Assembly: GCA_025058985.1 (NCBI GenBank)
Contig: JANXEB010000044.1
Location: 1-32,201, forward strand
From: Candidatus Aenigmatarchaeota archaeon
GTDB lineage: Archaea > Aenigmatarchaeota > Aenigmatarchaeia > CG10238-14 > SpSt-28
DNA: 32,201 nucleotides
Direction of reading: 5' to 3'
The position numbers and the translations under genes are program-made. Positions 143 to 23,212 of this stretch are shown here, in pieces; positions within the stretch are counted from its first letter, which is position 1; each line of letters starts with the position of its first letter. The notes under the pieces are model-generated. The model did no database searches, had not been told where the DNA came from, and saw nothing but the letters and a program-made list of their open reading frames with translations.

Positions 143-375
143 TGGAGAAAGAATTTGATAAAAAAATAGAAGCTTTAAGAGAGAAGTTAAAAGCTTTAAA
201 AACACTATCAAAAGAAATAGAAGAATTTAAAAGAAGACAAGAAATTTTTGAAAGTAGAGAAATAATAAATAGAATAGAAAGACTAGAAAATGTTATTAAA
301 AATATGCTTTTAATTATGGAGCAATACATAGAAATAATAACTATTTTATATGAAGGATTAGAAGAGTTATATTAA
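142..375 (+). CDS. Small coiled-coil protein (77 aa), unknown function
   Basis: ORF-track ORF with an ATG start. It shares a stop/start overlap with both neighbours (TAATG at 140-144 and at 373-377). The sequence is charged and helical (KIEALREKLKALKTLSKEIEEFKRRQE). I recognise no family. Confidence 0.5.
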   Translation: MEKEFDKKIEALREKLKALKTLSKEIEEFKRRQEIFESREIINRIERLENVIKNMLLIMEQYIEIITILYEGLEELY

Positions 376-1235
376 TGGCCGAAAATAAATTAGTTATAAA
401 AAATTTTTTAATATTTACAATTATTTCAATATATTTTTTAGCTCTCGTTTTTGCTAGAAACGAATTAACTATTCCAATTCAAATAAAAGAAATATCTCAT
501 ACTAAAGAAGTAATAAAAATTGACATAAAAAAATCTAAAGAAATAGAACATTTCATTCCAGGATGTAAAAATTTATGTGGAGATGGGATATGTCAAGAAA
601 TTGTTTGTCTTGCAATAGGATGTCCTTGTCCAGAAACTAGTGAAACTTGTAAAGAAGATTGTAAAGAGTTAAAGGAACTGAAACCAGTTATAACATTACA
701 AACAGATGCTTGTATTAAAATTTCTCCACTTGAAGAAAAACCAATTATTATTGATGAAAAACCAGTTGAATTTAGTGGTATGGAAGAAGTTCCAATTTTA
801 GTTGAGGCAAAATTTACAATTCCATCAAAATTTAATATTACTGAAGAGAAAACTTCTATTAGAATTAGTTTGGATAAAAATAAAAAAATTGCAAATCTTG
901 AAATTAATAATGTTCTAATAACAACAAAAGAAAATTTGAAAATAGAGAATTCTTCTTTAAAAATAGAAACTAAAAAAAGAGATGTTGTAGTAAATATAAC
1001 TCCAGAATTAGCTAAGTATATTATAAATAATAAAGAAAAATTACAAGAAATTAAAAAAATTGAGCTAAAAAAATTTGATGATAAAGTAGTTTATGAAATT
1101 AATGGCTTAAAAAAAGTTAAATTGTTTTGGTTAATTCCAATATTAATAAACATAAAAAGTAACATAAATGTAGAAAATGGTGGAATAGAAAAAATTGAAA
1201 AATCTTGGTGGAGTTTTTTTATAAAAAGTTCATGA
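375..1235 (+). CDS. Membrane-anchored or secreted Cys-rich protein, unknown function
   Basis: 286-aa ORF with an N-terminal hydrophobic anchor (FLIFTIISIYFLALVFA). It has one compact Cys cluster, CKNLCGDGICQEIVCLAIGCPCPETSETCKEDCKE. The remainder is Lys/Ile-rich and looks beta-rich, ending in a WWSFF motif. It is translationally coupled to the upstream small ORFs. Confidence 0.65.
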   Translation: MAENKLVIKNFLIFTIISIYFLALVFARNELTIPIQIKEISHTKEVIKIDIKKSKEIEHFIPGCKNLCGDGICQEIVCLAIGCPCPETSETCKEDCKELKELKPVITLQTDACIKISPLEEKPIIIDEKPVEFSGMEEVPILVEAKFTIPSKFNITEEKTSIRISLDKNKKIANLEINNVLITTKENLKIENSSLKIETKKRDVVVNITPELAKYIINNKEKLQEIKKIELKKFDDKVVYEINGLKKVKLFWLIPILINIKSNINVENGGIEKIEKSWWSFFIKSS

Positions 1236-1836: not shown

Positions 1837-2571
1837 TTATAAATAAACTAAACCTATTCCAAATCCTTTTTGGTTTTTATCATAAATTATTTCCCTACAT
1901 CTATAAATTCTTTTAACTTCATACCAAAGTTTATATACTTCTATTTTTAAAAGTTCATTAGGTAAAATATCGTGTAAAGCTATTATACTATTTTTTCCCG
2001 CAAATTTTTTATAATTATAGAAATCTTCTTTAACAGCTTTATATCTATGATCACCATCTATAAAAATAAAATCTACTTTTTTATTACTAAGTATATTACT
2101 AACAATATTAAGAACTTTCTCGTCATTAGATCTTCCTCTTATAAGGAATAATTGTTGATTATCTTTAACAAAAGATCTATACAGATCTATTTTCCACTTC
2201 GAATATCCTCCGCCAAGATAACCATGTGGTAAATCTATACTAATAATTTTAGCATTTTCTCTAGCAAGCTTACAAAAACAAAATAAACTTCCTCCATTAG
2301 CGGTTCCTATTTCTATTATATTTCTTGGTTTATGTCTTTTAAATATTTTTAATAAACCAACAAATTCTTCCTTTAATTGCATAGGTCTTATTAATCCGTT
2401 TAAAAAATTATAAGAAAAGTCGAAAACTTCCTCTACATTATTCGACTCAAAATTTCTAACAATTTCAATCACTTTTTTAATTCCTTTTTTAAAGACTATT
2501 TTGTGTTTTATATGAATAAGAGAAAAATAAACAAAAGATGCTAAATCTTTTATATAAAAAGAATTATTCAT
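1837..2571 (-). CDS. Class I SAM-dependent methyltransferase (CmcI/Methyltransf_24-like)
   Basis: 244-aa ORF. The IIEIGTANGGSLFCF glycine-rich SAM loop, the ISIDL acidic strand and the FIFIDGDHRY motif resemble the cephalosporin-hydroxylase / O-methyltransferase family 3 fold. Its stop codon abuts the tRNA-Lys 5' end. Confidence 0.7.
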   Translation of the reverse strand: MNNSFYIKDLASFVYFSLIHIKHKIVFKKGIKKVIEIVRNFESNNVEEVFDFSYNFLNGLIRPMQLKEEFVGLLKIFKRHKPRNIIEIGTANGGSLFCFCKLARENAKIISIDLPHGYLGGGYSKWKIDLYRSFVKDNQQLFLIRGRSNDEKVLNIVSNILSNKKVDFIFIDGDHRYKAVKEDFYNYKKFAGKNSIIALHDILPNELLKIEVYKLWYEVKRIYRCREIIYDKNQKGFGIGLVYL

Positions 2572-3802
2572 CTCTCTTAAGAAAATTTATTAAATCACCA
2601 AAACTATTAAATAAAATCTCCTCTCTTTTTTTCATATCTTTCAACCTAAATATTCCTTTTTCTATTTCTTCTTTTCCAACAAGAATAACAAAAGGTATTT
2701 TTTTGTTATTTGCATATTCTAGCTGCGATTTCAAATCTCTATTCTTTAAATCATACTCTGTTTTTATTCCATTCTCTCTTAGCTTTAATACAATTCTAAT
2801 AGCATCAATTTTTTGCTCCTTTTTAATATTAGCGACAAAAACGATTTTTTGCTCCTTCTTATATTCTGATTTAAGTAAATTAAAAACTCTTTCAACCCCT
2901 ATAGAAAATCCTACAGCTGGTAAATTTCTTTTTCCAACTTTTCCAATTAAATTATCATATCTACCACCGCCAGCTATAGAAAATTTTTCTTCTTCAACGG
3001 AAACTTCAAAAATATTTCCTGTATAATATTCTAAACCTCTAGCTAAACTAAAATCAATTTTTATTTTTTTATCAAACCCATAAATCTTAGACAAATCCAA
3101 AAAATCAAAAATTTCTTTACTACCATCTAACTCACTAATATCATATATTTTTTTATTTTCTATAAAATCAAAAATTTTTTCTTCATCTACTCCAATTTTT
3201 CTAAGCTCTTTTTTAACATTTTCTTTACCAATTTTATCTAATTTATCAAGTATTCTTAAAATTTCTAAGGATTTGTTGGCTAAGTTAATTTTTCTGAAAA
3301 AGCTATTCATAACTTTTATATTGTTTAATCTTAAAACAAAATTTTTTATACCAAGTTTTTCCAAAGCTTCTAAGCCACAAGCAACAACCTCAACGTCAGC
3401 CTCTATACTATCACTACCAACAACGTCTATATCAGCTTGATAAAATTCTCTCAATCTATTTTTTTTAACATCTTCGTATCTCCAAACTTTTCCTATTTGA
3501 TATCTTTTAAAAGGAAGCTGTAAATTTGGATTATTTGCCACGAATCTTGCTAATGGCAAAGTCAAATCAAATCTTAAACCAATATGCCTTCCTCCAAAAT
3601 CTTTAAAATTATATATTTGAGATTTTATTTGTTCACCAACATCTTTTATAGAAAGTAGCTCAAAAGTTTCTAAAACAGGTGTTTCCAGAGGTAAAAAACC
3701 ATATTTTTCAAAAACCTCTTTTATATCATCTAAAATATTATTTCTTAAAAACGCTTCATCACCAAAATAATCAGCTGTTCCTTTAACATTTTGGAATTTC
3801 AT
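2564..3802 (-). CDS. hisS: Histidine--tRNA ligase
   Basis: Class II aaRS motifs and HisRS signatures are present: KGTADY, RYQIGKVWRYE, REFYQADIDVVG, GGGRYDNL, and a C-terminal anticodon-binding domain (KIPFVILVGKEE). The ORF track extends to a TTG at 3823. I prefer the ATG at 3802 (MKFQNVKGTADY), which gives the usual N-terminal spacing. Confidence 0.9.
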   Translation of the reverse strand: MKFQNVKGTADYFGDEAFLRNNILDDIKEVFEKYGFLPLETPVLETFELLSIKDVGEQIKSQIYNFKDFGGRHIGLRFDLTLPLARFVANNPNLQLPFKRYQIGKVWRYEDVKKNRLREFYQADIDVVGSDSIEADVEVVACGLEALEKLGIKNFVLRLNNIKVMNSFFRKINLANKSLEILRILDKLDKIGKENVKKELRKIGVDEEKIFDFIENKKIYDISELDGSKEIFDFLDLSKIYGFDKKIKIDFSLARGLEYYTGNIFEVSVEEEKFSIAGGGRYDNLIGKVGKRNLPAVGFSIGVERVFNLLKSEYKKEQKIVFVANIKKEQKIDAIRIVLKLRENGIKTEYDLKNRDLKSQLEYANNKKIPFVILVGKEEIEKGIFRLKDMKKREEILFNSFGDLINFLKRDE

Positions 3803-3832
3803 AAATTTAATTAAACTATTCAAAATTATTTT

Positions 3833-4939
3833 ATGATTATAGTTAATTTTAAAAACTACCTAGAATCTTCTAACAAAAATGGTATAAAGCTTGTTAAAAT
3901 TTGTGAAGAGGTTTCGAAAAAATTTAATGTAGAAATAATTGCTTGTCCAAATTTTATAGATATAAAAGAAATTGTTAAAAAAGCAAAAATAAAAATTTTT
4001 TCCCAACATATAGACCCTATAGAAGATTTTGGAGCATTTACTGGCTCTACTGTTGCAAGCTATTTAAAAAATATTGGTGTAAAAGGAAGTTTAATAAACC
4101 ACTCTGAAAAGCCATTAAAAATTAAAGAAATTAAAAAATGTGTTGAAATATGTAAAAAACTTAACCTAACTTCAGTTGTTTTATCTAGTAAAATAAATCA
4201 AATAAAAAAAATAGTAAAATTTAAACCAAACTATATCGCTTATGAACCAAAAGAACTAATTGGTGGTGATATAAGTGTTTCTACTGCAAAACCAAAGATA
4301 ATAAAAAGAGCTTTTGAAATTTGTAGAAAAGAAAATATTAAGTTACTAGTTGGAGCTGGTATAAAAAATGGTCAAGATGTAAAAAAATCTAGAATATTTG
4401 GAGCTAAAGGAATTTTAGTTTCTAGTGGCGTTGTAAAAGCTAAAAATCCAAAAGTTACACTAGAAGATTTTGCAAGAAATATAAAAATAAAGGGACTTTT
4501 TGTTGGAAGATTTCAACCATTACACTTAGGTCATGTATATGCAATAAACCAGGCTTTTGATCTTTTTGATGAAGTAATAGTTGGTATAGGATCTTCTCAA
4601 TATTCTAATGAACCAAGAAATCCTTTTTCTGCAAAAACTAGAGAAAAAATGATAAAAGCTGTTTTTAAAAACAGAGAAAACTTAAAAATAGTTAAAATTC
4701 CTGATTTTAATAATGACGAAATTTGGACAAATTATTGTTTAAAAAGTTTTGACTTCGATGTTGTTTTTACTGGCTCTAAACATGTTATAAAATGCTTTGA
4801 GGGAAAAAAAGAAATAATAAAGCCTTTGATTTTGAAGCCTAGAAACATTTATAGAGGGACTTTTATTAGAAAATTGATGAAAGAAAATGATGAAAAATGG
4901 AAGGAATTAGTACCGAAAGAAATTATTGGATTATTTTAA
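3833..4939 (+). CDS. tpiA-nadM: Fusion protein: archaeal-type triosephosphate isomerase (about 3833-4480) plus nicotinamide-nucleotide adenylyltransferase (about 4493-4939)
   Basis: The N-terminal half has archaeal TIM motifs: VNFKNY, SQHIDPI, LINHSEK, IAYEPKELIGG, VGAGIKNGQDVKK, VSSGVVKAKNP. The C-terminal half has archaeal NMNAT motifs: GRFQPLHLGHV, IVGIGSSQYS..NPFSA, YRGTFIRKLM, EKWKELVP. It is one uninterrupted 368-aa frame. Confidence 0.85.
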   Translation: MIIVNFKNYLESSNKNGIKLVKICEEVSKKFNVEIIACPNFIDIKEIVKKAKIKIFSQHIDPIEDFGAFTGSTVASYLKNIGVKGSLINHSEKPLKIKEIKKCVEICKKLNLTSVVLSSKINQIKKIVKFKPNYIAYEPKELIGGDISVSTAKPKIIKRAFEICRKENIKLLVGAGIKNGQDVKKSRIFGAKGILVSSGVVKAKNPKVTLEDFARNIKIKGLFVGRFQPLHLGHVYAINQAFDLFDEVIVGIGSSQYSNEPRNPFSAKTREKMIKAVFKNRENLKIVKIPDFNNDEIWTNYCLKSFDFDVVFTGSKHVIKCFEGKKEIIKPLILKPRNIYRGTFIRKLMKENDEKWKELVPKEIIGLF

Positions 4940-7900
4940 TTTTTTTATTAATACAATTTTCTTATTCACAAATTGCAAATTTAATCATCTATCCAACACA
5001 AATTTATGAATGTATCAAATTTAATAGAAGTAGTATATGTAATCTAACTAACATAGTTACGAATGATACCTTATACGAATATCTAGATATAACCGATTCT
5101 TCATCCAGAAAATTTGGTAGAATAAATGTTTCTTTTTTTAACTTATCAATACCACACCACTGGATAAATGTTCTTAGAATTTACATAAAAATGAGATCTG
5201 ACGATTATGAGTTGATGTTTGGACAACATCCTACTCCATTAGGAAATAATGAGAAAGATGAATGCTACATAGCAATTTCTGAAAACTCTACTGGAATATT
5301 TATATACTCCTATGTTCTAACTCCATCATATATAAGTTGTAAAAATTTTTCTAATATAAGTTTGTTCATACAAGAGTTTGAGGTGACTAGCTTTTTAAAC
5401 CACATTAACAAAATAAGAAGTTCGGCAATTTCGTGGAGAGGTTACGATGAAAATGATTTACGAGTAGGTCTTGCTATTGATTTTATCCATATAATAGTTA
5501 ATTATTTCAATTTAACTTTTTCAAATTGGAATTTATCTAAGAGTGAAATCAATAGAGGAGAACTAGTTAATATTCATGCATTATTTAATATAACAGATGT
5601 AAATCATACTTTCTTGATTATAACAACTCCTTTGGGAGAAATTGTTGTTCTAAACAGAAGTTATGCTGGTATAAGTAATATTTCTTTATATCTATATTGG
5701 GTAAACTATACTTTTAATAGCTTTGAAAGAACTTACAAAATAGCTGGAATATATTCTTTTGGTCCTATTTTTGTTAACAACTCATTTGGTGGATACAATG
5801 CAACATTTCCTAAGTTAAACCTAACTCTATGGTCTTTTCCTATGATAGAAAGAATATTTCCAGAAGATTACTATATATACGTAAATGAAAATATAAATAT
5901 CCTTTGTGCTGTTTCAGACAATACAACTTTATATCCATTATCACGACAACCTGTTAGATTTTGGATAGACGGCAGTGCTGATGATTTTAATAGAACAACT
6001 AATGAAAGTGGTATTGCAACTAGAGGATTTCTCTCTTCTTCTGTTGGCAATCGTACAATAGACTGTGAAGTATTTGGAAATATCTCATCTTATTATAAAC
6101 AAAATTTAATATTACGTCAAAACAAATCTTCAACATGGGTTAAAGTTTTAGAACTATCAGCAATTCCAAAGTTAAATAAAACCACAAATATAAAAGTGAG
6201 AGAACCTATAAGAATTTTTGTTAATATTACAAACGCTAGTTTTATAAAAAATGTTAATGCGGCTATAAATTATCTAAAAATAAACTCTTCGGGATCTTTT
6301 AACATAATAGAATTTTATAACTTAACATTTAGTAGAACTTATGCTCCAGACTTACAAGAATATTGTTTAGACTATATTCCTAACTCTTCAGGTCTTTATA
6401 ATGTTTATATAACAACAGAAGCAAATCAACGCACAGCTTTCAATTCTACTTCTTTTTTTGTAGATTTTGGTAGAATAGAAATAGATGTTGAATTCCCAAA
6501 AAACAAACTATTGATAAACCAAACTTTTTTTGCCAAAATTAAGTTTAAAGCTATTGATGGAGATGTTTTAAATATAAATGCAAGCTTAAATAGCAGTAAT
6601 TATAGTAGATTGCAATTAAACAATGATGTTTTTTTCAATAGTTTGTTCAATTTATCTTCTGGAGAAACATTTACTATAAATAAATTTTGGAATCTCACTA
6701 GCAATGATTTCGGATCTGTTTTGCTAAATATAACTGCTATTCCCTCTAATGGAACATATAATTCAACTTCTTTTAATATATCAATTATTGGTTTCGAAAC
6801 TTTTATCTTAAACAAAACCTTAGATTTTGGTAATTCTACAACAATTAAAGCAGTAATAGAGAAAGATTCTAACGCCACTATAATAGAAAATGTATATCTT
6901 ATAACAAAATTTTTTAATATAACTGATTATAATACAATAGAGCTAACAAATCTAAAAATAGATATGCAACATATTGGAATAGAAAGTAATAAATATATTT
7001 TTTCAACTACTTTTATACCACCGAGAAGCGGAAACTATAGTGGAGTAATAAGTTTAAATTTAACTTCAACAATAATAACAAATAGTACAGAAAATTTTAA
7101 TGTAAGTTTTGGTACATCAAAAATATCTTTTCTAATACCATTTTATTATGTATTAACAAACCAAACTTTTAATATAACAGCAATAGCAGAAGCTTTGAAT
7201 GGAGATTTATGGAATGTTAGTTTTAACTTAACAATATTTGATCAAAAAACTATTAATATAACAGAAAATGAAAATTTTTTCCATGGTAAAAATATTTTTA
7301 TAAAAAATGGTAGTAAGTATTTTGAAAAATGGTTAGCTTTCTCTAACAATAGTGGATTGAATAGAATGATTGTTAGTTTAGTTTCTCTATATAGCAACTC
7401 TAGCGCAGATGAAAGTTTTGAAATTATAGAGCCATTAGAAATGGAAATAGAAAATAATCAAACTTATATAGATGAATTTTCAAATCTAATAGTACCTGTT
7501 GTTGGTAATGCAAGTGAAGTTAATGTTAATTTTACAATTTTCAAAGCTTTTGATTCTGGAGTAGAATCATTCCTTGCAAAAACAGTTACAATTAAAAATG
7601 TTATAGACTGCAATATAGAAATAGAAACTGGTAATGTTGCTTTGTTAGAAAAAGGATCTAGTGCTTTTTCACTTGGTGGAAGTAATGCAAATTTTTCCAT
7701 AGATAATAACAATAATACAGCATGGATAACATTTTCAAAAGATTATCTTATTGTTAATTTAAGAAGTATATTTCCAGTAGGAAAAATAGAACTATTATGG
7801 TTTGGTCCATCAAATAGCTTTGCTAATATAAGTTATATAAATGAGAACAATGAAATAATAATTCTTGAAAAAAATATTTTAATACCAACTTCATTATCAA

Positions 7901-15045: not shown

Positions 15046-15345
15046 ACTATCTACAGGGGGTGCAGGTGGTCTGACCGGAAGCATCTCTAAGTACGAAAGG
15101 AACGGAGATGCGGCACCTCTGGTGTACCGGCTGTTAATTGCATGCCGGGTAGCCACGTGCTTATGGATAAGTCCTGAAGGCATCTAAGGACGAAGCCATC
15201 CGGGAAAATAGACCACCGTCTTCTTACTACTGGCAACAGTAGTAAGAGGAGAAGAGCTGCTATAGACGATGGCGTTGATGGGGTGGTGGTGTACGTGTGG
15301 AGGTTTCGACCAACACACTTAGCCTACCACTCCCAATCGCTCAAT

Positions 15346-15382
15346 CACTAGACCCTTATAGTCAAATAACCCTATGACATCT
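15346..15382 (+). repeat. 3' strand of the 23S rRNA processing stem
   Basis: Perfect complement of 12005-12024 and 12030-12041 (see the 5' strand feature). Confidence 0.85.
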
Positions 15383-16839: not shown

Positions 16840-19647
16840 TTAGAATTGATTATTCGGCCATAAATCAGCACCTCCGAACCACCAACCACAAGCTTCTGCA
16901 GATGCGCCCATAACAAACAAAGTTATTGTACTACCAATTCCACCAGTAAGTAGTGTTAAAAATACTGGACCAACTAGACCCATAAGTTGACAAAAGCTTT
17001 TAGCTCTAGCCTCAATTTTATCTCCGTAAGGAATGCAATAATTTCTTGCGATTTGCAGATCATCTTTTAAACCTGGTATTTTCATTTCTTCAAAATATTT
17101 TTTCATAGATTCCTGATCCACATCTATAATTATCTGCTGTGCAGGACTATCTGTAGAGCCTAGAAGACTTGCTATTCCTGTCCATCCGGAAGAAGTACAC
17201 TCTGAAACAATAGTCTCCATACCATTGCTTAATACTTTGTAATTTATAGGTTCTATTTTATATGTTCCGTTAATCAATCCCCTTATAAAATCTTCTCTAT
17301 CTTTTATTTTACATTTATCTACTAATACTCTATACATACACTCCAATATACTTTTATCTTCTAGGCATTCGTTGTAACCTACTGAGTTTTCACAAATAGT
17401 AATATACGTTGTGATTTCTTCATTTTCAATGTACTGTATTTCCTTTTCTTTAACTTTAAAATACAATTTATCAGATTGATAAAACTTATCGCATTTAATG
17501 ATACTATCCTTAGTTTTTTTCACAATCAAATCTGTTTTACATGGAGAAACTAACCAAGCTCTACTATATGTATCCCTTAGTCCAAATGCTTCCATCTTTT
17601 CTAGCATTACCGTAACAAAAGAATTGCTAGGATTCTCTAAAGATATGTTAAACATATTATTCACTATCGAAGATGAAACATATAAGCACATTGAGTTTCC
17701 ACCACATCCATTATAAGGTTCTTCGTATGAGTTTGCTAAAAGTGAATAAATGGCGTCTATAGCTATAGCTGCAATGATGTAATCCGCGTAACAAATACCC
17801 TGCTTCCATTTACTCCATTCGTAACCACAAGTTATAATTCCAGAAGGAAATCCTAAAGGTATTCCTTCTACCGCTCCCAGAGTAGCTGCCGATACTCCGC
17901 TTATGTAATATTTCAACGTGCCGAAATATTGTTTTTCAAAAACATTTTCACCCACCTTTTCAATTGTTTCGTCAGCCCATTCCTTAAACGTAGTCCAAAA
18001 ACTCTTACCTATTTCTTCATAGTATTCTTTCATAGTTATTTCTCCAGACTCCTCCATAAACTTAAAGTTAAAAATTGTTCTTTTGACATTAAGATCTACA
18101 AATTCTTCTATTAATTTCTTAATTCTTTTAGCTTCTTTTTCAGGCATTTTCGATAAAACTTTTTCCAAGCTTGTTAATGTGCCTTTCTCATCAAGCAAGC
18201 TTTTAATAACCTTCTTGTTAAGGAACCAGCTAGCAAATTTTTTAAAATCTTCACTCTTCACAGCCGACTTTATTCTTTCTTTTACTATAGTCTTTTCTTT
18301 TTCTTCCAGTAAATTAAGTTTTACAACTCTTTTAGCTATGCTATTGTCTCCTGTTCTTTTAAAATCTGCCGCTAATTCGTTTTTAAGCTCCTTGGCAAAT
18401 GAAGCTAAATCATTATATCTTGGTTTTCCATCAACTATTTTAATTCCTCTAATCATAGATTCGGCAAACGCTTTTCTTGTTGTCTCATATCTTATTAAAG
18501 CATCTTCTGGTATAGATCCTACAATAACAGAAATTATTTCGTCTTCTGAAATTTTTTCTATATGACCGCCTTTATTTTTTATCAAATCATAAATCCCTCC
18601 TATTATTCTTTTTTCTATTGTTTCTGGTTGCATGGATTGATGCAGATAAACCATTGTTTTTATTTCCCTTTCTTCAAACAACTCTATTAATTTATCTACA
18701 ATAGCTTTCTCAACTATTTCGTCAACAGGACCTGTGTTTTTTATGGCAGAAATGAGTGCGAGATTCAAAAAATTTCTAGGAAGAAAACCCCTAGCTAAGG
18801 TTTTTAAGACTTCTTTCCACGCCTTTGGACTAAAAGCCATTTTGGGATTCAGAACGATTTTTTTCGTAGTATACCAAACAGATTTTAAGCCAGCCTTACT
18901 AATCGGTATGACATTTGTTACACCTCCCATTGCTATACTTGCAACTACCCATTCTAAGGGTTCATCTCTATTGCTCCACCAGTCCTCTGTTTTTGGTTCT
19001 AGCTTCTCGAACATAACAATATACTTTGGATGTTGAAAAGCTCTTATAAAACAGTTATACCAAAAAACCGGAGTAATTCCTATAGACGGTACACACCACT
19101 CAGTTGTTTTAATGTAAGTTTCTAAAAGAAAAGTCGAAAACATATTTATTACGGGAACTCTTATTATTGTTTCTGAAGTTATAGCTAATAAAAGTTTATC
19201 AAAAAACCAAACGCCAGTAGCGATTGATGGTTTTTGTAGTAGAGTAAAGCCAATTACCTTACATTTCATTTCCTTTTTATTACATTCTACGTTAACAACA
19301 TCTTTATAAATACTGGAACATCTATAATAAACCGTATTACCATTACTACCTATTTTTTCACAAGAAACCATAGAAAAATTTGGTAATAGTTTATACTCTC
19401 TCTCTACCTCTAGTTCCTCAAAGGTTATTTTTTTATAACATGTACTGACAGTTTCTTTTTCCGTCGAAACGAAATCTATAGCACAACTCAAAGCAGCTGT
19501 AGAAGTTAGTGCATAAGCGGTGTCTCTATCTATCGGATATGGTATCATCGGTATTTGTATTCTTAACGCAAGTAAAACAAGGTAAGAAAATATAGCGACG
19601 GTTATAATTCCAATAATTAAGTATACGAGATATGTAACAGTTGGCAT
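16840..19647 (-). CDS. Large (935 aa) polytopic membrane protein; last gene of the orphan operon
   Basis: Long ORF with an N-terminal TM (YLVYLIIGIITVAIFSYLVLLAL). By eye it has 22 Cys, confined to the N-terminal about 210 aa and the C-terminal about 330 aa. The central region of about 370 aa is Cys-free and Lys/Glu-rich. Hydrophobic segments flank that central region, and there is a C-terminal Gly-rich TM (LVGPVFLTLLTGGIGSTITLFVMGA). I recognise no family. Confidence 0.8.
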   Translation of the reverse strand: MPTVTYLVYLIIGIITVAIFSYLVLLALRIQIPMIPYPIDRDTAYALTSTAALSCAIDFVSTEKETVSTCYKKITFEELEVEREYKLLPNFSMVSCEKIGSNGNTVYYRCSSIYKDVVNVECNKKEMKCKVIGFTLLQKPSIATGVWFFDKLLLAITSETIIRVPVINMFSTFLLETYIKTTEWCVPSIGITPVFWYNCFIRAFQHPKYIVMFEKLEPKTEDWWSNRDEPLEWVVASIAMGGVTNVIPISKAGLKSVWYTTKKIVLNPKMAFSPKAWKEVLKTLARGFLPRNFLNLALISAIKNTGPVDEIVEKAIVDKLIELFEEREIKTMVYLHQSMQPETIEKRIIGGIYDLIKNKGGHIEKISEDEIISVIVGSIPEDALIRYETTRKAFAESMIRGIKIVDGKPRYNDLASFAKELKNELAADFKRTGDNSIAKRVVKLNLLEEKEKTIVKERIKSAVKSEDFKKFASWFLNKKVIKSLLDEKGTLTSLEKVLSKMPEKEAKRIKKLIEEFVDLNVKRTIFNFKFMEESGEITMKEYYEEIGKSFWTTFKEWADETIEKVGENVFEKQYFGTLKYYISGVSAATLGAVEGIPLGFPSGIITCGYEWSKWKQGICYADYIIAAIAIDAIYSLLANSYEEPYNGCGGNSMCLYVSSSIVNNMFNISLENPSNSFVTVMLEKMEAFGLRDTYSRAWLVSPCKTDLIVKKTKDSIIKCDKFYQSDKLYFKVKEKEIQYIENEEITTYITICENSVGYNECLEDKSILECMYRVLVDKCKIKDREDFIRGLINGTYKIEPINYKVLSNGMETIVSECTSSGWTGIASLLGSTDSPAQQIIIDVDQESMKKYFEEMKIPGLKDDLQIARNYCIPYGDKIEARAKSFCQLMGLVGPVFLTLLTGGIGSTITLFVMGASAEACGWWFGGADLWPNNQF

Positions 19648-19674
19648 ATAAATTTATTTTATTTTTAAAAAATA

Positions 19675-20580
19675 TTAGCAGTTGTAATTGTTTTCAATTC
19701 CTTTGGTAATAAAAAGCATTAGCGGAATACCTCTTGCCGATGATGTAGCCACAAACCTTAGAGAAGAACTTATTGAGGAGATCACGCAATCTTTACTTGA
19801 ACAATATCTGTAACATACTTCCTCTCCTTCTGGTGTCGTATAGCATGACGTTCTATAATAGTATTTTTCATAAAAAGTTACTCTAACATCAACAAACATA
19901 TCTTTAACCTCCACAAATGAATTTTTATTGCTATTCAATTTTGCTATTTCCTTAATCTTTTCTCTCATAGCTCTCTCTATCATGGTTTTTGCGTTAGAAT
20001 GGGGACAAGTATCTCTACATGAAAGTCCAGTATAAGTATATCTAAGGTAAAGAGTGCATATATTTTTCATTTCATAGTCTATCAAATCCAAAACTTTATA
20101 GAAAATATCTTTATAGACAAAATATTTTTCTTCTATACAAGCATTTAGATTAAACTTTTTTGTTATAGTTGGATTTTCAATATTAATTTCCAAACTAGAA
20201 GTACTGATACAAATGTCATTATTTTTTTCTTTATTTATTTTGTCTACTTTTACAGGTAATCCCGATAATTTAATCCTACTTTTTTCACTAAGCTTTACTA
20301 CATAATCATTTAAATAAATTTGTAATTTATTTTTGAAATCTTCGTATTGATTTGATCTTAATCTATAATAGTTAAAATCGGAATCATTCCACGCTCTTAT
20401 AGTTGATAAATGTAAGGATGCTTTCATAGACTTGTAAACACTCTCTATCATAAAAACTTTTTTCAAATTTTCGAAAACTATTAAATTGCTCCTATACATG
20501 TGATTTTGAAAAATTATTAAAGAAAAATAAATAGATAATACAACAAACAAAACTAAGAAAAACACTATCCAACTTTTCAT
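19675..20580 (-). CDS. N-terminally anchored Cys-rich protein (301 aa), operon gene 4
   Basis: The ORF track starts at 20607. The ATG at 20580 (MKSWIVFFLVLFVVLSIYF) gives a classic ATGA stop/start overlap with the upstream gene. It has 10 Cys, including TSCYTTPEGEEVCYRYCSSKDC. I recognise no family. Confidence 0.7.
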   Translation of the reverse strand: MKSWIVFFLVLFVVLSIYFSLIIFQNHMYRSNLIVFENLKKVFMIESVYKSMKASLHLSTIRAWNDSDFNYYRLRSNQYEDFKNKLQIYLNDYVVKLSEKSRIKLSGLPVKVDKINKEKNNDICISTSSLEINIENPTITKKFNLNACIEEKYFVYKDIFYKVLDLIDYEMKNICTLYLRYTYTGLSCRDTCPHSNAKTMIERAMREKIKEIAKLNSNKNSFVEVKDMFVDVRVTFYEKYYYRTSCYTTPEGEEVCYRYCSSKDCVISSISSSLRFVATSSARGIPLMLFITKGIENNYNC

Positions 20581-21155
20581 GGCATACGAACCAATGTTAA
20601 TTTCCAATCAGACGGTTGTAGAACAACATTAGTAAAAGCAAAAATCATACTACTCACTTCACCATTGAAAAGTGGGAAGAATATTATGTATCTCTCTATA
20701 ATGCTTTCTGTTTTACATTCCTTATACTCACTTATGTATTCGCCCTCACCAAAATTTATTCTTGCACAGACCAGAAGTGGCAGATTATTAGCAAAGTATT
20801 TTTTGAACAGACGAGAAAAAATGTTATCTTTTTTAATCCGATAATCATAGCTTGCAACGTAAATATATGGAACTTCTGCTTTACACGTGCAAACCTCTTT
20901 TTCACCAAAAACCTGACAATTTGAACTACAATAGCTTTCTTTTTCCTGTCCTCTATAGTATTCCTCTTTCCACTCGTATTCTATAGCTAGTGATAGAAAA
21001 AGTTCTGGAATGTTGTTGAAAGATATGTACTCGAACAAATCTAAATAAAAACTCTCCATTCTATACCTAAAGAATGTCAAGAAAGTAATTGTAATTATCA
21101 ATACTACCACTATCACTACGATACTTAACTTTTCCAAAAGAAATATTCCTTTCAT
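20577..21155 (-). CDS. N-terminally anchored Cys-rich protein (192 aa) with a prepilin-like N-terminus, operon gene 3
   Basis: It starts MKG-IFLLE-KLSIVVIVVVLIITITF, that is Gly followed by a hydrophobic segment with Glu at +5. It has 6 Cys (SYCSSNCQVFGEKEVCTC...). Its start forms an ATGA overlap with gene 2. Confidence 0.7.
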   Translation of the reverse strand: MKGIFLLEKLSIVVIVVVLIITITFLTFFRYRMESFYLDLFEYISFNNIPELFLSLAIEYEWKEEYYRGQEKESYCSSNCQVFGEKEVCTCKAEVPYIYVASYDYRIKKDNIFSRLFKKYFANNLPLLVCARINFGEGEYISEYKECKTESIIERYIIFFPLFNGEVSSMIFAFTNVVLQPSDWKLTLVRMP

Positions 21156-21877
21156 TTTTTAGGAACCTTCACAAATATTTTTTTCTCTGTTTTAAGAAAA
21201 TTAACTATTATCTCACTACATTCTTGAACCGCGTCGTACTTAATTATTTCTAACTTCAAACCACAATCTGTATAAGTTTGACATACGTTGTTTAAACAAA
21301 CTTTACCTTTGCCTATGCTAAGACTACGAAAGTCATTCAGCAATATTTTTATCCTCTTCTCGAACGATAAAGTCGATAAACAAGAATATGTTAAATAATA
21401 AGCTAACTGAGACAATGGTGTAACTAATGAAATTATTCTAACTCTAATTGGCTTGCAAAAAAATTCTTTTTCACAAATAGCGACATAACTTTCGAACATT
21501 GATTTCTTCAACATACCAGAATCGATATAACAAGAATTTTCCTTAAAAGCTTGAGTAATAAATGGGCCATCAAAGTTTGCTATATATCTGTTAACAGATT
21601 CGTTAGAAAAATTCACTACATAATTCAATTCATAGCTTTCTATTTTTTCTATTTCTCTATCGTTCCACTCATTGAAAAAACTCCTAGAAATTAACAGTCT
21701 ATCAATTAAGAAATTAGAAGAAGATATATAAGAATTTAATATAGAATAAGTTAGCAAAAATTGTTTAGAACTTACTATCTCAACTCTTAATTTAAAAAAA
21801 TTTCCACTAACTACTAGAAGCAATGCTACGACAATAGCCATTAAAAATACCCAAATCAAAATATCTCCTAACTCCAT
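21152..21877 (-). CDS. N-terminally anchored Cys-rich protein (241 aa), operon gene 2
   Basis: It starts MELGDILIWVFLMAIVVALLLVV. It has 8 Cys, including KVCLNNVCQTYTDC. It overlaps gene 1 by 10 nt. Confidence 0.7.
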   Translation of the reverse strand: MELGDILIWVFLMAIVVALLLVVSGNFFKLRVEIVSSKQFLLTYSILNSYISSSNFLIDRLLISRSFFNEWNDREIEKIESYELNYVVNFSNESVNRYIANFDGPFITQAFKENSCYIDSGMLKKSMFESYVAICEKEFFCKPIRVRIISLVTPLSQLAYYLTYSCLSTLSFEKRIKILLNDFRSLSIGKGKVCLNNVCQTYTDCGLKLEIIKYDAVQECSEIIVNFLKTEKKIFVKVPKK

Positions 21878-22251
21878 TTTTTTTCGATTAAAAAAACTAT
21901 TTCATTAGCACTCTCCTTTATTCGTACATTTAGTCGCTTTATTGGTATTGTTAAACAATCCTCGGTAGTTACTACAAACTGAGAATTTATACATAACATT
22001 GGAAAAAAATGGCTTACAGTATATTTAACATTTCCAGTATTTTCTATCCTATACTCATAATTAAAATTTGTCCTATAAAAAAGCGAAGAATATATCAATG
22101 ATAATAAAGTAGTTGTCTGCATATCACTAAACCTTAAGCCCAATATGTTGGAAATTTCCCCAGCAATTTGCATAGTTGTCATGATTATAACCAAGGTCAT
22201 TATTGTAAGGAAAATTAAGACAAATAGCTTTTTTGCTGCAAATTCTCCCAT
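21868..22251 (-). CDS. N-terminally anchored small protein (127 aa), operon gene 1
   Basis: It starts MGEFAAKKLFVLIFLTIMTLVIIMTT. It has 2 Cys. It is the first ORF after a 64-nt divergent spacer shared with the recombinase gene. Confidence 0.6.
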   Translation of the reverse strand: MGEFAAKKLFVLIFLTIMTLVIIMTTMQIAGEISNILGLRFSDMQTTTLLSLIYSSLFYRTNFNYEYRIENTGNVKYTVSHFFPMLCINSQFVVTTEDCLTIPIKRLNVRIKESANEIVFLIEKKWS

Positions 22252-22315: not shown

Positions 22316-23212
22316 GTGTTAGAAAAATTTGAAAGTTTTAGAAATTTATGCGGTGAAATAGATTTATTAACAAGAAGTGAAAACACAAAAAAAACTTATG
22401 AAAAAGGTTTAATGGCTTTCATGAAAATTTTTGAAATAGATGACCTGGACAAATTTATAAATAAAGTTAGAAATGGTGAAATAATACCAAATGAAGTATA
22501 TAAACAGTTTCTTCTAAACCTAGCGAAAAAACAAACAGCTCCAAAAACTATATTAACTTGGTCTTCCGCTTTAAAAAAATTCTTTGAAGCAAATTCTATA
22601 AAAATAGATGAAAAAATAAGAATTAAAGTTTTTAATATTCATGAAGATCACCTTATCTCAAAAGAAGAACTTAGGTTTATTGTTAACAATGTTAATATAA
22701 GAACACAATCTATTATTCTAATTTTATCTTCTTCTGGTTTAAGAATAGACGAACTTAGAAATTTAAAAATAGGAGATGTTGATTTGAAATCAGAACCAGC
22801 AGTAATAAAAGTTAGAGGAAGTTTAGCAAAAGAAAGAAAACCAAGAGTAACCTTCATTTCAAAACAAGCAAAAGAAGTTTTGCTAAAATATTTAAGTACT
22901 AGAAAAAATGTAGACAATGATTCTTATCTAATTACAAGCAGGGAAGAAAAACAATTAAGCTATTCACAAATTCAATACATAATTAACAAAGCTTTTAAAC
23001 TAATTGCAAAAAAAGAAGGTAAAAGATATAACTTACATGCACATGTTTTAAGAAAGTTTTTTAAAACCAACATGATAGCTGCAGGTGTACCTGCTCCAAT
23101 AGTCGATAGATTAATGGGACATAAAAGATACCTTAGTGAAGAATATGAACTCTATACTTTTGATCAATTAAAAGAATGGTACTTAAAAGGAGAAGCAAAT
23201 TTAACATTATGA
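22316..23212 (+). CDS. Tyrosine recombinase / integrase (XerA-like)
   Basis: 298 aa with a GTG start. It has an N-terminal SAM-like core-binding domain (TKKTYEKGLMAFMK). The catalytic-domain pattern is SSGLRIDELRNLKIGDV ... HAHVLRKFF ... LMGHKRYLSEEYELY, matching R...HxxR...Y. Confidence 0.8.
   Translation: MLEKFESFRNLCGEIDLLTRSENTKKTYEKGLMAFMKIFEIDDLDKFINKVRNGEIIPNEVYKQFLLNLAKKQTAPKTILTWSSALKKFFEANSIKIDEKIRIKVFNIHEDHLISKEELRFIVNNVNIRTQSIILILSSSGLRIDELRNLKIGDVDLKSEPAVIKVRGSLAKERKPRVTFISKQAKEVLLKYLSTRKNVDNDSYLITSREEKQLSYSQIQYIINKAFKLIAKKEGKRYNLHAHVLRKFFKTNMIAAGVPAPIVDRLMGHKRYLSEEYELYTFDQLKEWYLKGEANLTL

What the first reader, a model, noticed from the sequence alone, without database searches (positions are those of the whole stretch)
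4897..10629. 1910-aa sequon-saturated surface protein with a transmembrane anchor and cytoplasmic tail
A single ORF occupies 18% of the window. By eye I count 41 N-X-S/T sequons in the first about 600 residues, roughly one per 15 aa, and the density continues across the ectodomain. This points to very heavy N-glycosylation, although Asn, Ser and Thr are all favoured by AT-rich codon bias. The architecture is signal/anchor, long beta-rich ectodomain, PSPPSPG linker, Cys cluster, coiled coil, TM, then a basic coiled-coil tail. It fits an S-layer protein or a giant adhesin of the kind DPANN archaea are thought to use for host contact.
Basis: partly seen in the sequence, partly recalled or inferred. 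Interest (0 to 1): 0.6.

Follow-up and report, generated by a model that had tools for sequence, protein, structure and literature searches.

The report
Giant sugar-coated DPANN surface fibre protein
This 1910-residue gene of a tiny hot-spring archaeon (Aenigmatarchaeota) encodes a membrane-anchored surface protein with three times more sugar-attachment sites than chance predicts, and it belongs to an unannotated DPANN family in which most relatives have a KaiC-like ATPase gene directly after it.

Summary
ORF 4897-10629 is intact and carries 103 N-X-S/T sequons against 35±5 expected (z≈13). Reversed and shifted motifs sit at expectation, and so do the other 24 ORFs of the window.

AlphaFold and profile searches give this layout:
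- signal peptide;
- about 16 beta-sandwich domains, including a CBM32/discoidin lectin-like module;
- Pro-rich hinge and an 8-Cys knot;
- Ig-like domain and helical bundle;
- one transmembrane (TM) helix;
- a 97-aa basic cytoplasmic helical hairpin.

The last 370 residues define an unannotated family. It has about 175 representative clusters and was found in DPANN genomes, apart from one Heimdallarchaeota-labelled bin. The module is always C-terminal and carries varied heads.

Two new points emerged.
- In two sister-species genomes that are otherwise base-identical, only the first ~365 codons differ (67-94% DNA identity). The distal tip is therefore a swapped, hypervariable cassette.
- In 27 of 45 family loci a KaiC-like ATPase gene starts within 150 nt of the giant's stop codon. 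This is not so in this window or its closest clade.

I read the protein as a glycan-shielded contact or recognition fibre, not the S-layer lattice protein, with moderate confidence. AglB, the ATPase and a classical S-layer gene could not be sought in the organism's own genome, because the genome search was shut.

The parts
4897..10629 (+). Whole gene: 1910-aa type-I membrane glycoprotein precursor. The mature polypeptide is about 216 kDa, pI 6.1. Its start overlaps the 3' end of the upstream TIM-NMNAT gene by 43 nt.
   Evidence: The start and the overlap are conserved in the orthologue locus L001.
4897..4968 (+). Signal peptide, aa 1-24 (MEGISTERNYWIILIFLLIQFSYS|Q). The cleavage site is inferred.
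   Evidence: Hydrophobic segment aa 11-29. It is conserved in the orthologues.
4969..5541 (+). Membrane-distal N-terminal tip domain, aa ~25-215: beta-rich with two short helices and 4 Cys. This is the most variable part of the protein.
   Evidence: AlphaFold model mf85f3aeae2c2. Identity to P0002 is 48-55% here against 61% overall. In sister-species strains the variation is concentrated at aa ~40-215.
5542..7218 (+). Array of Ig-like beta-sandwich domains, aa ~216-774. It holds two of the three copies of the repeated '...SGxY...F.V.FG...NQTF...GD.WN' module (aa 498-, 711-).
   Evidence: AlphaFold pLDDT is mostly 75-92. Repeat copies are shown and internal BLAST repeats. Foldseek gives only generic Ig/MG-domain strings.
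7219..7623 (+). Low-confidence segment, aa 775-909. It is beta-rich by sequence, but the fold is not resolved.
   Evidence: pLDDT 27-46.
7636..8001 (+). CBM32 / F5-8 type C (discoidin)-like module, aa ~914-1035: a candidate carbohydrate-binding domain.
   Evidence: The profile of 9 family members hits CBM32 domains in PDB: 2vc9 E=8e-7, YeCBM32 2jd9 E=2e-5. All 9 members hit PF00754, best E=1.4e-6, although the window copy alone scores only E=0.0055, below Pfam's cut-off. AlphaFold pLDDT is 70-86.
8020..9477 (+). Conserved stalk, aa 1042-1527: about 6 beta-sandwich (Ig/macroglobulin-like) domains shared with the wider DPANN family. It includes the third copy of the repeated module (aa 1054-).
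   Evidence: BLAST to P0006-P0015 covers aa 1042 onwards. AlphaFold pLDDT is 80-96. Foldseek finds MG-domain strings. There is a weak Pfam MG2 hit in P0014.
9478..9540 (+). Pro/Gly-rich hinge, aa 1528-1548 (contains PSPPSPG).
   Evidence: pLDDT below 50 at model residues 487-507. Motif position.
9541..9678 (+). Eight-cysteine knot, aa 1549-1594 (C-x-C-x7-C-x4-C-x11-C-x3-C-x7-C-x5-C).
   Evidence: Cys positions. The motif C.C..W...GCG...C...YQ.R.C.P.GC..E..C is conserved across the family.
9685..10002 (+). Membrane-proximal Ig-like beta-sandwich, aa 1597-1702, with a conserved Cys pair (aa 1641 and 1644; adjacent CC in most relatives).
   Evidence: There are weak hits to HYDIN/VesB-like Ig and 2qsv.
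10006..10263 (+). Extracellular helical bundle or stalk, aa 1704-1789. It is free of sequons.
   Evidence: Helices H663-687, H696-711, H715-738 and H740-747 of the model. No sequon lies after aa 1673.
10267..10335 (+). Transmembrane helix, aa ~1791-1813 (YVIILLSITAFSSIYLILEVIVP).
   Evidence: It is continuous with the cytoplasmic helix in the model (H749-802).
10336..10626 (+). Cytoplasmic basic helical hairpin, aa 1814-1910. The family-invariant motif QYF-KRKIS-EKAF (aa 1841-1852, nt 10417-10452) sits at the turn between the two helices.
   Evidence: Invariant columns Y1842, F1843, R1845, I1847 and F1852 in 30 sequences. The helix break is at model residues 803-807. This is the most conserved 100-aa block against P0002 (77%). 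Charge.

Best explanation
The gene encodes a type-I, single-pass membrane glycoprotein that stands on the cell surface of a hot-spring Aenigmatarchaeon (DPANN) as a long, glycan-shielded fibre used for contact or recognition. It is not the lattice-forming S-layer protein.

**Shown**
- An intact ORF with an N-terminal signal, about 16 beta-sandwich domains, one TM helix and a basic cytoplasmic tail.
- 103 sequons, three times expectation, specific to this protein and conserved in position.
- A CBM32/discoidin-like module.
- Membership of an unannotated DPANN family defined by its C-terminal module: Cys knot, Ig-like domain, helical bundle, TM and a cytoplasmic hairpin with an invariant YF-R-I-F motif.

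**Inferred mechanism**
- After Sec export, an AglB-type oligosaccharyltransferase loads many of the ~100 sequons. The glycan coat stabilises and protects an extended polypeptide at high temperature.
- The conserved membrane-proximal half (aa 1042-1910) acts as stalk, hinge and anchor.
- The lineage-specific distal half (aa 25-1041) is the working end. It combines a lectin-like module with a hypervariable N-terminal tip that is exchanged by recombination between otherwise identical genomes of the sister species. That pattern is what one expects of a surface that recognises a partner (host cell, glycan) or is targeted by viruses.
- The cytoplasmic hairpin is a docking site. In most relatives its likely partner is the single-domain KaiC-like ATPase encoded immediately downstream. 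In this genome that gene is not adjacent and its presence is unknown.
For: **Sequons**
- Statistics and controls.
- Enrichment across the family (median 2.9-fold in 108 members).
- Positional conservation.

**Structure**
- AlphaFold models have mean pLDDT 82.2 (aa 1042-1910) and 72.6 (aa 25-1041).
- CBM32 profile hits.

**Family and taxonomy**
- 175 representative clusters, with the module always C-terminal.
- 42 loci in 42 assemblies, almost all Aenigmatarchaeota, Nanohaloarchaeota or other DPANN.
- Heads differ between members, for example a NosD/beta-helix in P0038 and Big_13 arrays in P0020.

**Hypervariable tip**
- L001 and L003 are 100% identical in DNA except for a 1.3-kb tract that covers giant codons 1 to ~365 (dN 0.18, dS 0.29 in codons 1-150).
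- Four cluster members are 66-85% identical in the first 300 aa and 96-100% identical elsewhere.

**Cytoplasmic coupling in relatives**
- A co-directional KaiC-like ORF (PF06745, E~1e-60) starts within -60 to +150 nt of the stop codon in 27 of 45 loci. These include the 36-37%-identical full-length orthologue loci L004 and L005.

**Against the S-layer reading**
- No hit to S-layer families.
- Literature assigns MSTP-like S-layer proteins to Aenigmatarchaeota.
Against: - No experiment or expression data exist. No RNA runs hold this sequence.
- Glycosylation is inferred from sequons only. AglB could not be sought in the genome.
- The KaiC-like gene is absent from the whole 32-kb window and from the three closest loci (L001, L003, L006). 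The coupling may therefore have been lost in this lineage.
- The tip hypervariability was seen in the sister species, not in the window's own population. There the available contigs are 3-5x deep and identical to the window.
- One hit per genome, conserved synteny and only moderately faster evolution than the neighbours (61% vs 72-78% identity) also fit a core envelope or S-layer component.
- The fold searches do not discriminate. Ig-like strings occur in S-layers (N. maritimus 8c8o, rank 39) as well as in adhesins.
- The window's own CBM32 copy is below Pfam's cut-off, and no sugar-binding residues were checked.
Confidence: 0.5

Rival explanations
1. It is the S-layer glycoprotein of this organism. 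One polypeptide would combine the canopy-forming Ig-like domains with its own stalk and membrane anchor, as in tetrabrachion of Staphylothermus marinus or the halobacterial S-layer glycoprotein. The sequons would provide the usual S-layer glycan coat.
For: - It has a signal peptide, many Ig-like domains, extreme sequon density, a helical stalk and a C-terminal TM.
- It is single-copy per genome and syntenic.
- It is moderately conserved.
- Foldseek lists the N. maritimus S-layer among generic hits.
- Variable outer faces are also typical of S-layers.
Against: - There is no homology to S-layer families.
- Johnston et al. predict MSTP-like S-layer proteins for Aenigmatarchaeota.
- In the cultured DPANN N. 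aerobiophila the top-expressed S-layer candidate is NEQ300-like without a TM, while sequon-rich Ig proteins with a C-terminal TM are lower-expressed accessory surface proteins.
- A conserved 97-aa cytoplasmic tail and a dedicated KaiC-like ATPase in relatives are not S-layer features.
- The same anchor carries very different heads in other members.
- The gene has no intergenic region of its own upstream.
Confidence: 0.2
2. It is a passive protective coat, a glycocalyx or spacer protein. Its only role would be to display glycans and keep other cells, viruses or proteases at a distance, with no specific ligand and no signalling.
For: - 51% of ectodomain Asn sit in sequons.
- No catalytic domain was found.
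- The Ig-like array is generic.
Against: - A lectin-like CBM32 module is conserved beyond the close orthologues.
- The tip is swapped by recombination in a clonal background.
- The invariant cytoplasmic motif and the ATPase linkage in relatives are hard to explain for a passive spacer.
Confidence: 0.12
3. It is a short relative of the SPEARE-type giant proteins of Nanohaloarchaeota and serves as a conduit or secretion device into a host cell.
For: - The overall layout is the same: signal, Ig-like ectodomain, TM near the C-terminus and a conserved cytoplasmic part.
- Family members occur in Nanohaloarchaeota, including strain SG9.
Against: - The defining cytoplasmic VirB4/TraG-like ATPase domain (PMC10266531) is absent. 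The tail is a 97-aa helical hairpin.
- No laminin-G or protease domain was found.
- The SG9 homologue (L037) also ends right after the tail.
Confidence: 0.04
4. The sequon excess is a by-product of AT-rich codon usage (Asn, Ser, Thr, Ile rich) and has no biological meaning.
For: The window is 25% G+C and the protein is 11.3% Asn.
Against: - Composition-preserving shuffles give z=12-13.
- Mirror and shifted motifs are at expectation.
- The other 24 ORFs are at or below expectation (33 vs 41).
- Higher-GC homologues show the same 3-fold excess.
Confidence: 0.01

Closest known systems
Sequon-rich Ig-like surface proteins with a C-terminal TM helix in the cultured DPANN archaeon Nanobdella aerobiophila (e.g. 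MJ1_0076, MJ1_0691; preprint 10.1101/2023.10.27.564410)
   Same: - Thermophilic DPANN.
- Signal peptide, several Ig-like folds and lectin-like modules.
- Dozens of N-glycosylation sequons (14-52 per 900-1300 aa).
- C-terminal TM helix.
- Proposed role in host contact.
   Different: - No sequence relation was tested or found.
- The present family has a specific conserved Cys-knot/Ig/helical-bundle/TM/cytoplasmic-hairpin module and a 97-aa tail.
- Its sequon density is higher (1 per 16 aa).
SPEARE / giant membrane-anchored proteins of Nanohaloarchaeota (Hamm et al. 2019, PMC6642349; PMC10266531)
   Same: - Type-I topology.
- Long tandem Ig-like ectodomain.
- TM near the C-terminus.
- The cytoplasmic part is the most conserved region.
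- DPANN-restricted, with proposed host interaction.
   Different: - SPEARE proteins are 3,000-9,400 aa and carry a cytoplasmic VirB4/TraG-like ATPase domain in the same polypeptide.
- Here the tail is a short helical hairpin. In relatives the ATPase is a separate KaiC-like protein encoded downstream.
Archaeal S-layer glycoproteins with a stalk and C-terminal membrane anchor (tetrabrachion; halobacterial Csg; SlaB of Sulfolobales).
   Same: - Beta-sandwich domains, a helical or coiled-coil stalk and a C-terminal TM.
- Heavy N-glycosylation in thermophiles.
   Different: - Those anchors end within a few residues of the membrane.
- There is no conserved cytoplasmic domain, no ATPase partner and no sequence similarity.
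ArlX-ArlH of the crenarchaeal archaellum motor. ArlX is a membrane protein with a cytoplasmic coiled coil that scaffolds ArlH, a single-domain KaiC-like ATPase. KaiC-like ATPases were proposed as archaeal signalling hubs by Makarova, Galperin & Koonin (2017). Both points come from my own knowledge.
   Same: A single TM helix continues into a cytoplasmic helical domain, and the gene sits next to that of a single-domain KaiC-like ATPase (in 27 of 45 family loci).
   Different: - ArlX has no large ectodomain and lies in archaellum operons.
- No homology was tested.
- The interaction is inferred from gene order only and is not seen in this window.
CBM32 / F5-8 type C carbohydrate-binding modules (e.g. 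of Clostridium perfringens GH89, Yersinia YeCBM32)
   Same: The profile of aa ~914-1035 matches these modules (E=8e-7 to 2e-5), with the conserved Trp and the beta-sandwich.
   Different: - It is embedded in the middle of a giant archaeal surface protein, not appended to a glycoside hydrolase.
- The ligand is unknown.
- The window's own copy is sub-threshold on its own.

Membership tests
Archaeal S-layer (lattice-forming) glycoproteins | Sequence or profile homology to a known S-layer family (MSTP/DUF1608, S_layer_N/C, SlaA, Csg) | tested here: not met
   There is no such hit in Pfam, NCBIfam or PDB sequences.
Archaeal S-layer (lattice-forming) glycoproteins | Forms a 2D lattice and is among the most abundant proteins or transcripts | not testable with these tools
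   No RNA runs hold the sequence. No multimer prediction or imaging was available.
Archaeal S-layer (lattice-forming) glycoproteins | Secreted, beta-sandwich rich, N-glycosylated and membrane-anchored | tested here: met
   Signal peptide, about 16 beta-sandwiches, 103 sequons and a C-terminal TM. Glycan occupancy itself was not tested.
SPEARE-type giant proteins of Nanohaloarchaeota | Cytoplasmic VirB4/TraG-like (earlier called 'type III restriction') ATPase domain after the TM helix | tested here: not met
   Only 97 residues follow the TM. They are helical and have no Pfam hit.
SPEARE-type giant proteins of Nanohaloarchaeota | Signal peptide, tandem Ig-like ectodomain and a TM near the C-terminus | tested here: met
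DPANN C-terminal anchor-module family (unnamed; defined here) | C-terminal module: 8-Cys knot, Ig-like sandwich with a Cys pair, helical bundle, TM, and a cytoplasmic hairpin with invariant P-Y...Y-F-x-R-x-I...F | tested here: met
   All elements and invariant residues are present in the window protein. phmmer finds 175 representatives, 137 of them at E<1e-10.
DPANN C-terminal anchor-module family (unnamed; defined here) | Single-domain KaiC-like ATPase gene directly downstream | tested here: not met
   It is present in 27 of 45 loci but absent from the window and from L001, L003 and L006. No KaiC-like ORF lies anywhere in the 32 kb. The rest of the genome could not be searched.
CBM32 / F5-8 type C domain (for aa ~914-1035 only) | Profile match to PF00754 / solved CBM32 structures and a beta-sandwich fold | tested here: met
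   Family profile against PDB gives E=8e-7. All 9 members hit PF00754 (best 1.4e-6), but the window copy alone scores E=0.0055, below the gathering score. The model shows a beta-sandwich with pLDDT 70-86.
CBM32 / F5-8 type C domain (for aa ~914-1035 only) | Sugar-binding site residues and measured glycan binding | not tested
   No coordinates were available for inspection and no assay was possible.
Alpha-2-macroglobulin / thioester proteins (top Foldseek hits) | Thioester motif CGEQ and a thioester domain | tested here: not met
   There is no CGEQ-like motif. Foldseek TM-scores are 0.1-0.2, which indicates only a shared string of MG/Ig-like domains.
Archaeosortase or sortase substrates (PGF-CTERM, PEF-CTERM, LPXTG) | Sorting motif followed by a TM and a short basic tail at the extreme C-terminus | tested here: not met
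   There is no PGF, PEF or LPxTG motif, and the tail is 97 aa long.

The most novel reading that the evidence does not exclude
The protein would be the outer arm of a DPANN-wide transmembrane contact device. An exchangeable, glycan-shielded ectodomain, with a recombination-swapped recognition tip and a lectin module, would be joined through one TM helix to an invariant cytoplasmic hairpin. A dedicated single-domain KaiC-like ATPase would read or drive that hairpin, in the manner of ArlX-ArlH. What the cell touches outside would thus be coupled to an ATPase switch inside. In this lineage the ATPase gene would simply have moved elsewhere in the genome.
Probability: 0.3. Interest if true: 0.75.

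Novelty: new variant of a known kind. Interest (0 to 1): 0.55.

Why it matters
DPANN archaea live by physical contact with other cells, yet almost nothing is known about the molecules that make that contact. This protein gives several concrete, testable handles:
- one of the densest sequon loads I have seen, a direct target for archaeal glycoproteomics;
- a defined lectin-like module;
- a tip domain that is swapped between otherwise identical genomes, which points to partner or virus recognition;
- a conserved, unannotated anchor and tail module that defines a family found in DPANN genomes.

Every database entry seen for this family is named 'hypothetical protein'. In most relatives the tail is genetically tied to a KaiC-like ATPase. 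If that link is functional, it would be an example of outside-inside coupling through a giant surface protein in archaea.

Tried and rejected
- **Sequence annotation.** Pfam, NCBIfam and PDB sequence searches of the whole protein gave nothing significant. Profile searches of both halves gave only the CBM32 hit and noise.
- **Fold searches.** Foldseek of both AlphaFold models against PDB, and of the N-terminal half against BFVD, returned only generic strings of Ig/MG-like domains (alpha-2-macroglobulin, complement, HYDIN, phage tail proteins) at TM-scores of 0.1-0.2. No fold family could be assigned. The alpha-2-macroglobulin reading was rejected because there is no thioester motif.
- **Word-index searches.** A search restricted to aa 1540-1910 found only the closest orthologue. 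A search with the N-terminal 330 aa alone, looking for fragmentary tip alleles, found nothing.
- **Genome-collection scan.** The 16-sequence module alignment A3 was too diverse for the scan. The 15-sequence alignment A2 worked.
- **SPEARE link.** P0015 is RLG15458.1, not the RLG14629.1 listed as SPEARE-like. The tail has no ATPase.
- **Expression and population data.** No RNA runs exist. The three DNA runs hold only 3-5x contigs identical to the window, so neither expression nor within-population diversity of the window's own gene could be measured.
- **dN/dS.** The comparison between the window and its 61% orthologue was not attempted because synonymous sites are saturated. The near-identical pair L001/L003 was used instead.
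Full report
**1. The observation**

The window is 25% G+C. It carries an archaeal LSU rRNA gene at 12031-15356 and two tRNA genes. ORF 4897..10629 (+) is uninterrupted and encodes 1910 aa, which is 17.8% of the window.

The protein holds 103 N-x(not P)-S/T sequons, 37 of them in the first 600 residues.

The excess is well above chance:
- 2000 whole-protein shuffles give 35.4±5.1, with a maximum of 54 (z=13.2).
- Shuffles confined to 20-, 40- or 100-residue blocks give z=12.2-12.7.
- Motifs with identical composition but no meaning for the oligosaccharyltransferase sit at expectation. [ST]-x-N scores 31 against 35, N-[ST] 30 against 36, and N-x-x-[ST] 28 against 36.
- N-x-T is enriched 3.9-fold and N-x-S 2.2-fold.
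- The other 24 ORFs of the window share the same codon bias. Together they hold 33 sequons against 41 expected, and the predicted secreted or membrane proteins among them show no excess.

In the ectodomain 51% of all Asn lie in a sequon, one per 16.3 aa. There is no sequon after aa 1673, that is in the helical stalk, the TM helix or the tail.

**2. Relatives and origin**

Full-length orthologues exist only in Aenigmatarchaeota MAGs.
- One group is 61% identical (P0002 and cluster mates, 1915-1923 aa).
- Others are 36-37% identical (P0003-P0005).
- More distant proteins of 1500-3300 aa align only from aa ~1042 onwards.

All 15 homologues have the same roughly 3-fold sequon excess. This includes P0014 and P0015, whose composition points to a much higher G+C. 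Across 108 longer family members the median excess is 2.9-fold.

Sequon positions are conserved well beyond background:
- 79 of 102 are shared with the 61% orthologue.
- 43 of 98 are shared with a 36% orthologue.
- 30 are shared by all four full-length proteins.

The sequence is held by hot-spring metagenome runs. Every database name seen for the family is 'hypothetical protein'.

**3. Anatomy**

Two AlphaFold models were built on my own alignments. The aa 1042-1910 model used 30 sequences and reached mean pLDDT 82.2. The aa 25-1041 model used 13 sequences and reached 72.6. Together they show about 114 beta-strands, which corresponds to about 16 beta-sandwich domains. From the N-terminus the parts are:
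- signal peptide, aa 1-24;
- a distal tip domain, aa ~25-215;
- Ig-like domains to aa ~774;
- an unresolved segment, aa 775-909;
- a CBM32/discoidin-like module, aa ~914-1035;
- a conserved stalk of Ig/macroglobulin-like domains, aa 1042-1527;
- a disordered Pro-rich hinge that includes PSPPSPG, aa 1528-1548;
- an 8-Cys knot, aa 1549-1594;
- a membrane-proximal Ig-like sandwich, aa 1597-1702;
- a sequon-free helical bundle, aa 1704-1789;
- a TM helix, aa ~1791-1813. In the model it continues without a break as a cytoplasmic helix to aa 1843;
- a turn, then a second helix, aa 1849-1884, and short terminal helices.

The tail is basic (K+R 28, D+E 13), which fits an inside location. A module of the form '...SGxY...F.V.FG...NQTF...GD.WN' recurs three times, starting at aa 498, 711 and 1054.

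The lectin-like module is the only part with a specific known relative. A profile of nine family members matches solved CBM32 domains: C. perfringens GH89 at E=8e-7 and YeCBM32 at E=2e-5. All nine members hit Pfam F5_F8_type_C, best E=1.4e-6, although the window's own copy is sub-threshold alone at E=0.0055.

Foldseek returned only generic strings of Ig/MG domains with TM-scores of 0.1-0.2. The hits were complement and alpha-2-macroglobulin, HYDIN, RPTPmu, the N. maritimus S-layer and phage tail proteins. There is no thioester motif and no sortase- or archaeosortase-type signal.

**4. The family is defined by its C-terminal module**

A full HMMER scan of 1.84 billion representative proteins with aa 1540-1910 found 175 hits, 137 of them at E<1e-10. 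Hit lengths run up to 6221 aa, and the module always lies at the C-terminal end, at most a few hundred residues from the terminus. The shortest hits are assembly fragments.

The scan of one genome per GTDB species found 42 loci in 42 different assemblies. Most are Aenigmatarchaeota. The rest are Nanohaloarchaeota (strain SG9, Nanohalobium, Nanoanaerosalina, Asbonarchaeum), other 'Nanobdellati', one Nanoarchaeota and one Heimdallarchaeota-labelled bin, which is probably a binning error.

The heads in front of the module differ between members. Examples are Big_13/Big_7 arrays, a NosD/right-handed beta-helix, or nothing recognisable.

Within the module the cytoplasmic part is the best conserved. 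Residues P1813, Y1842, F1843, R1845, I1847 and F1852 are invariant in 30 sequences. The motif QYF-KRKIS-EKAF sits exactly at the turn of the predicted hairpin. Against P0002 the tail is 77% identical, while the adjacent extracellular stalk is 42% identical. Neither Pfam, NCBIfam nor PDB knows this module.

**5. A hypervariable, recombination-swapped tip (new)**

Two MAGs of the sister species, L001 (GCA_039091915.1) and L003 (a hot-spring bin), are 100% identical in DNA in two stretches. One is at least 2.8 kb upstream of the giant gene. The other runs from about codon 365 of the giant gene to its end and on into the downstream genes.

Between these stretches lies a 1.3-kb tract that is only 67-94% identical. 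It covers the last ~200 nt of the upstream TIM-NMNAT gene and giant codons 1 to ~365. In codons 1-150 dN is 0.18 and dS is 0.29, while both are 0 beyond codon 450.

Four proteins of that 90% cluster show the same picture. They are 66-85% identical in the first 300 residues and 96-100% identical elsewhere, with the differences concentrated at aa ~40-215.

This is the signature of an allelic cassette exchanged by homologous recombination. The window's protein is also least similar to P0002 in this part, at 48-55%. I could not test the window's own population. The available contigs are 3-5x deep and identical to the window, and no fragmentary tip alleles were found.

**6. Gene neighbourhood**

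Around the window gene the neighbours are housekeeping genes. They are a sugar-O-methyltransferase-like MTase, HisRS, a TIM-NMNAT fusion upstream, and then an RMMBL hydrolase, a 97-aa ORF and the LSU rRNA downstream. This order is conserved in L001 and L003. The giant is 61% identical to its orthologue, while most neighbours are 72-78% identical.

A note from an earlier agent of this scan prompted me to test all family loci for KaiC-like ATPases.
- In 27 of 45 loci a co-directional ORF starts within -60 to +150 nt of the giant's stop codon. Twenty-five of these are among the 40 loci with at least 500 nt of downstream flank.
- All seven such downstream ORFs I scanned are single-domain KaiC-like ATPases (PF06745, E~1e-60). 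One convergent second ORF scanned in L004 is KaiC-like as well. The Nanohaloarchaeota versions carry N-terminal extensions.
- BLAST often finds this second KaiC-like paralogue lying convergently just after the first.
- The set includes L004 and L005, the 36-37% full-length orthologues of the window protein.
- The window, its closest clade (L001, L003, L006) and a few other clades lack the adjacent gene. In L002 four KaiC-like genes lie 0.9-5.7 kb upstream instead.
- No KaiC-like ORF exists anywhere in the 32-kb window.
- The rest of the genome could not be searched.

Another agent had reached the same family-level conclusion on the genome of L008. That note is not independent evidence, but my count was made on my own loci.

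**7. Interpretation**

The following are shown:
- topology and domain layout;
- the selected and conserved sequon load;
- the lectin-like module;
- the DPANN-specific anchor family;
- the tip cassette in the sister species;
- the KaiC linkage in relatives.

The following are inferred:
- the sequons are occupied by an AglB-type oligosaccharyltransferase. AglB is near-universal in archaea by my own knowledge, and aglB is present in the cultured DPANN N. aerobiophila;
- the glycans stabilise an extended fibre in a hot spring;
- the distal half recognises a partner;
- the cytoplasmic hairpin docks a partner, most likely the KaiC-like ATPase.

With about 16 domains of roughly 3.5-4 nm each, an extended ectodomain could reach some 50-60 nm. 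That is a rough estimate of mine.

I prefer 'contact or recognition fibre' over 'S-layer lattice protein' for six reasons:
- there is no S-layer homology;
- the literature places MSTP/NEQ300-like S-layer proteins in Aenigmatarchaeota and other DPANN;
- the cytoplasmic tail is long and invariant;
- an ATPase is linked to the gene in relatives;
- one anchor carries many different heads;
- the tip is swapped by recombination.

The S-layer reading is not excluded. The gene is single-copy, syntenic and only moderately fast-evolving, and stalked, TM-anchored S-layer glycoproteins do exist.

**8. Comparison with known systems and novelty**

As a kind, sequon-rich Ig-like DPANN surface proteins with a C-terminal TM have been described (N. 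aerobiophila). So have giant DPANN surface proteins with conserved cytoplasmic parts (SPEARE). This protein fails the defining SPEARE feature, an in-chain VirB4/TraG-like ATPase, and it fails homology tests for S-layer families.

Three things are new relative to the papers I searched:
- the conserved anchor and tail module as a family marker;
- its frequent pairing with a separate KaiC-like ATPase;
- the recombination-swapped tip.

I therefore rate it a new variant of a known kind. The functional analogy I find most useful is ArlX-ArlH of the archaellum: a membrane protein with a cytoplasmic coiled coil that scaffolds a KaiC-like ATPase. That analogy is a lead from memory, not a tested relationship.

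**9. Limits**

- There are no expression, proteomic or glycan data.
- The organism's own genome could not be searched.
- The hypervariability and the ATPase linkage were observed in relatives, not in this window.

Noticed in passing
window 3833-4939 (+): One 368-aa ORF combines triosephosphate isomerase (PF00121) with a cytidylyltransferase-like / NMN-adenylyltransferase-type domain (PF01467). The fusion is conserved at 77% identity in L001 and L003. Its 3' end overlaps the giant gene's start by 43 nt, and its last ~200 nt belong to the recombination tract seen between L001 and L003.
   Followed up: partly
window 12031-15356 (+): The archaeal LSU rRNA gene stands alone, with no SSU or 5S gene in the 32 kb. 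It spans 3326 nt against a 2987-position model, so it carries about 340 nt of insertions.
   Followed up: no
window 28105-28196 (+): The tRNA match spans 92 nt against a 71-position model, which probably means an intron-containing tRNA.
   Followed up: no
window 1837-2571 (-): This is a methyltransferase of the RMNT_CmcI (rhamnosyl O-methyltransferase-like) / Methyltransf_24 type. In L001 and L003 it lies directly beside the TIM-NMNAT and giant gene pair. It could methylate glycan sugars, but nothing was tested.
   Followed up: no
window 2564-3823 (-): HisRS is only 45% identical to the copy in L001, whereas the neighbouring genes are 72-78% identical. It also sits at a different place there. 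This suggests a replaced or paralogous gene, or a local rearrangement.
   Followed up: no
window 16840-22251 (-), 27158-27679 (-), 28777-29556 (+): Five consecutive ORFs with N-terminal hydrophobic anchors have no Pfam hit and no sequon enrichment. A T2SSF-like fragment and a type IV prepilin peptidase (Peptidase_A24) lie nearby, so this looks like a type IV pilus-related neighbourhood. These secreted proteins lack the sequon excess of the giant.
   Followed up: partly
window 22316-23212 (+): A tyrosine recombinase / phage-integrase family gene (PF00589, E=1e-25) lies between the anchored-protein cluster and LeuRS.
   Followed up: no
window 375-1235 (+): A 286-aa ORF has an N-terminal anchor and a dense Cys cluster (CKNLCGDGICQEIVCLAIGCPCPETSETCKEDC). 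It has no Pfam hit.
   Followed up: no
L002 17746-18027 and the equivalent ends of P0006-P0013 and P0129: In one clade of the family the cytoplasmic tail is followed by a second hydrophobic segment and a ~75-aa C-terminal domain (…REIRIKGKISFIQK…DETGDIYIFSNKE…). By eye it looks like an OB fold. It has no Pfam hit.
   Followed up: no
L002 2694-8501: Upstream of the family member P0006 lie four KaiC-like ATPase genes, one of them fused to a small-GTPase-like domain. A Roadblock/LC7 gene and a Peptidase_M73 gene are also there. Together they look like a signalling-type neighbourhood.
   Followed up: partly
L031, L032, L035, L037-L039, L025, L041 (downstream ORFs): In Nanohaloarchaeota-type loci the KaiC-like ATPase directly after the giant gene is 425-820 aa long. 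It has an N-terminal extension of 200-580 aa with no Pfam hit.
   Followed up: partly
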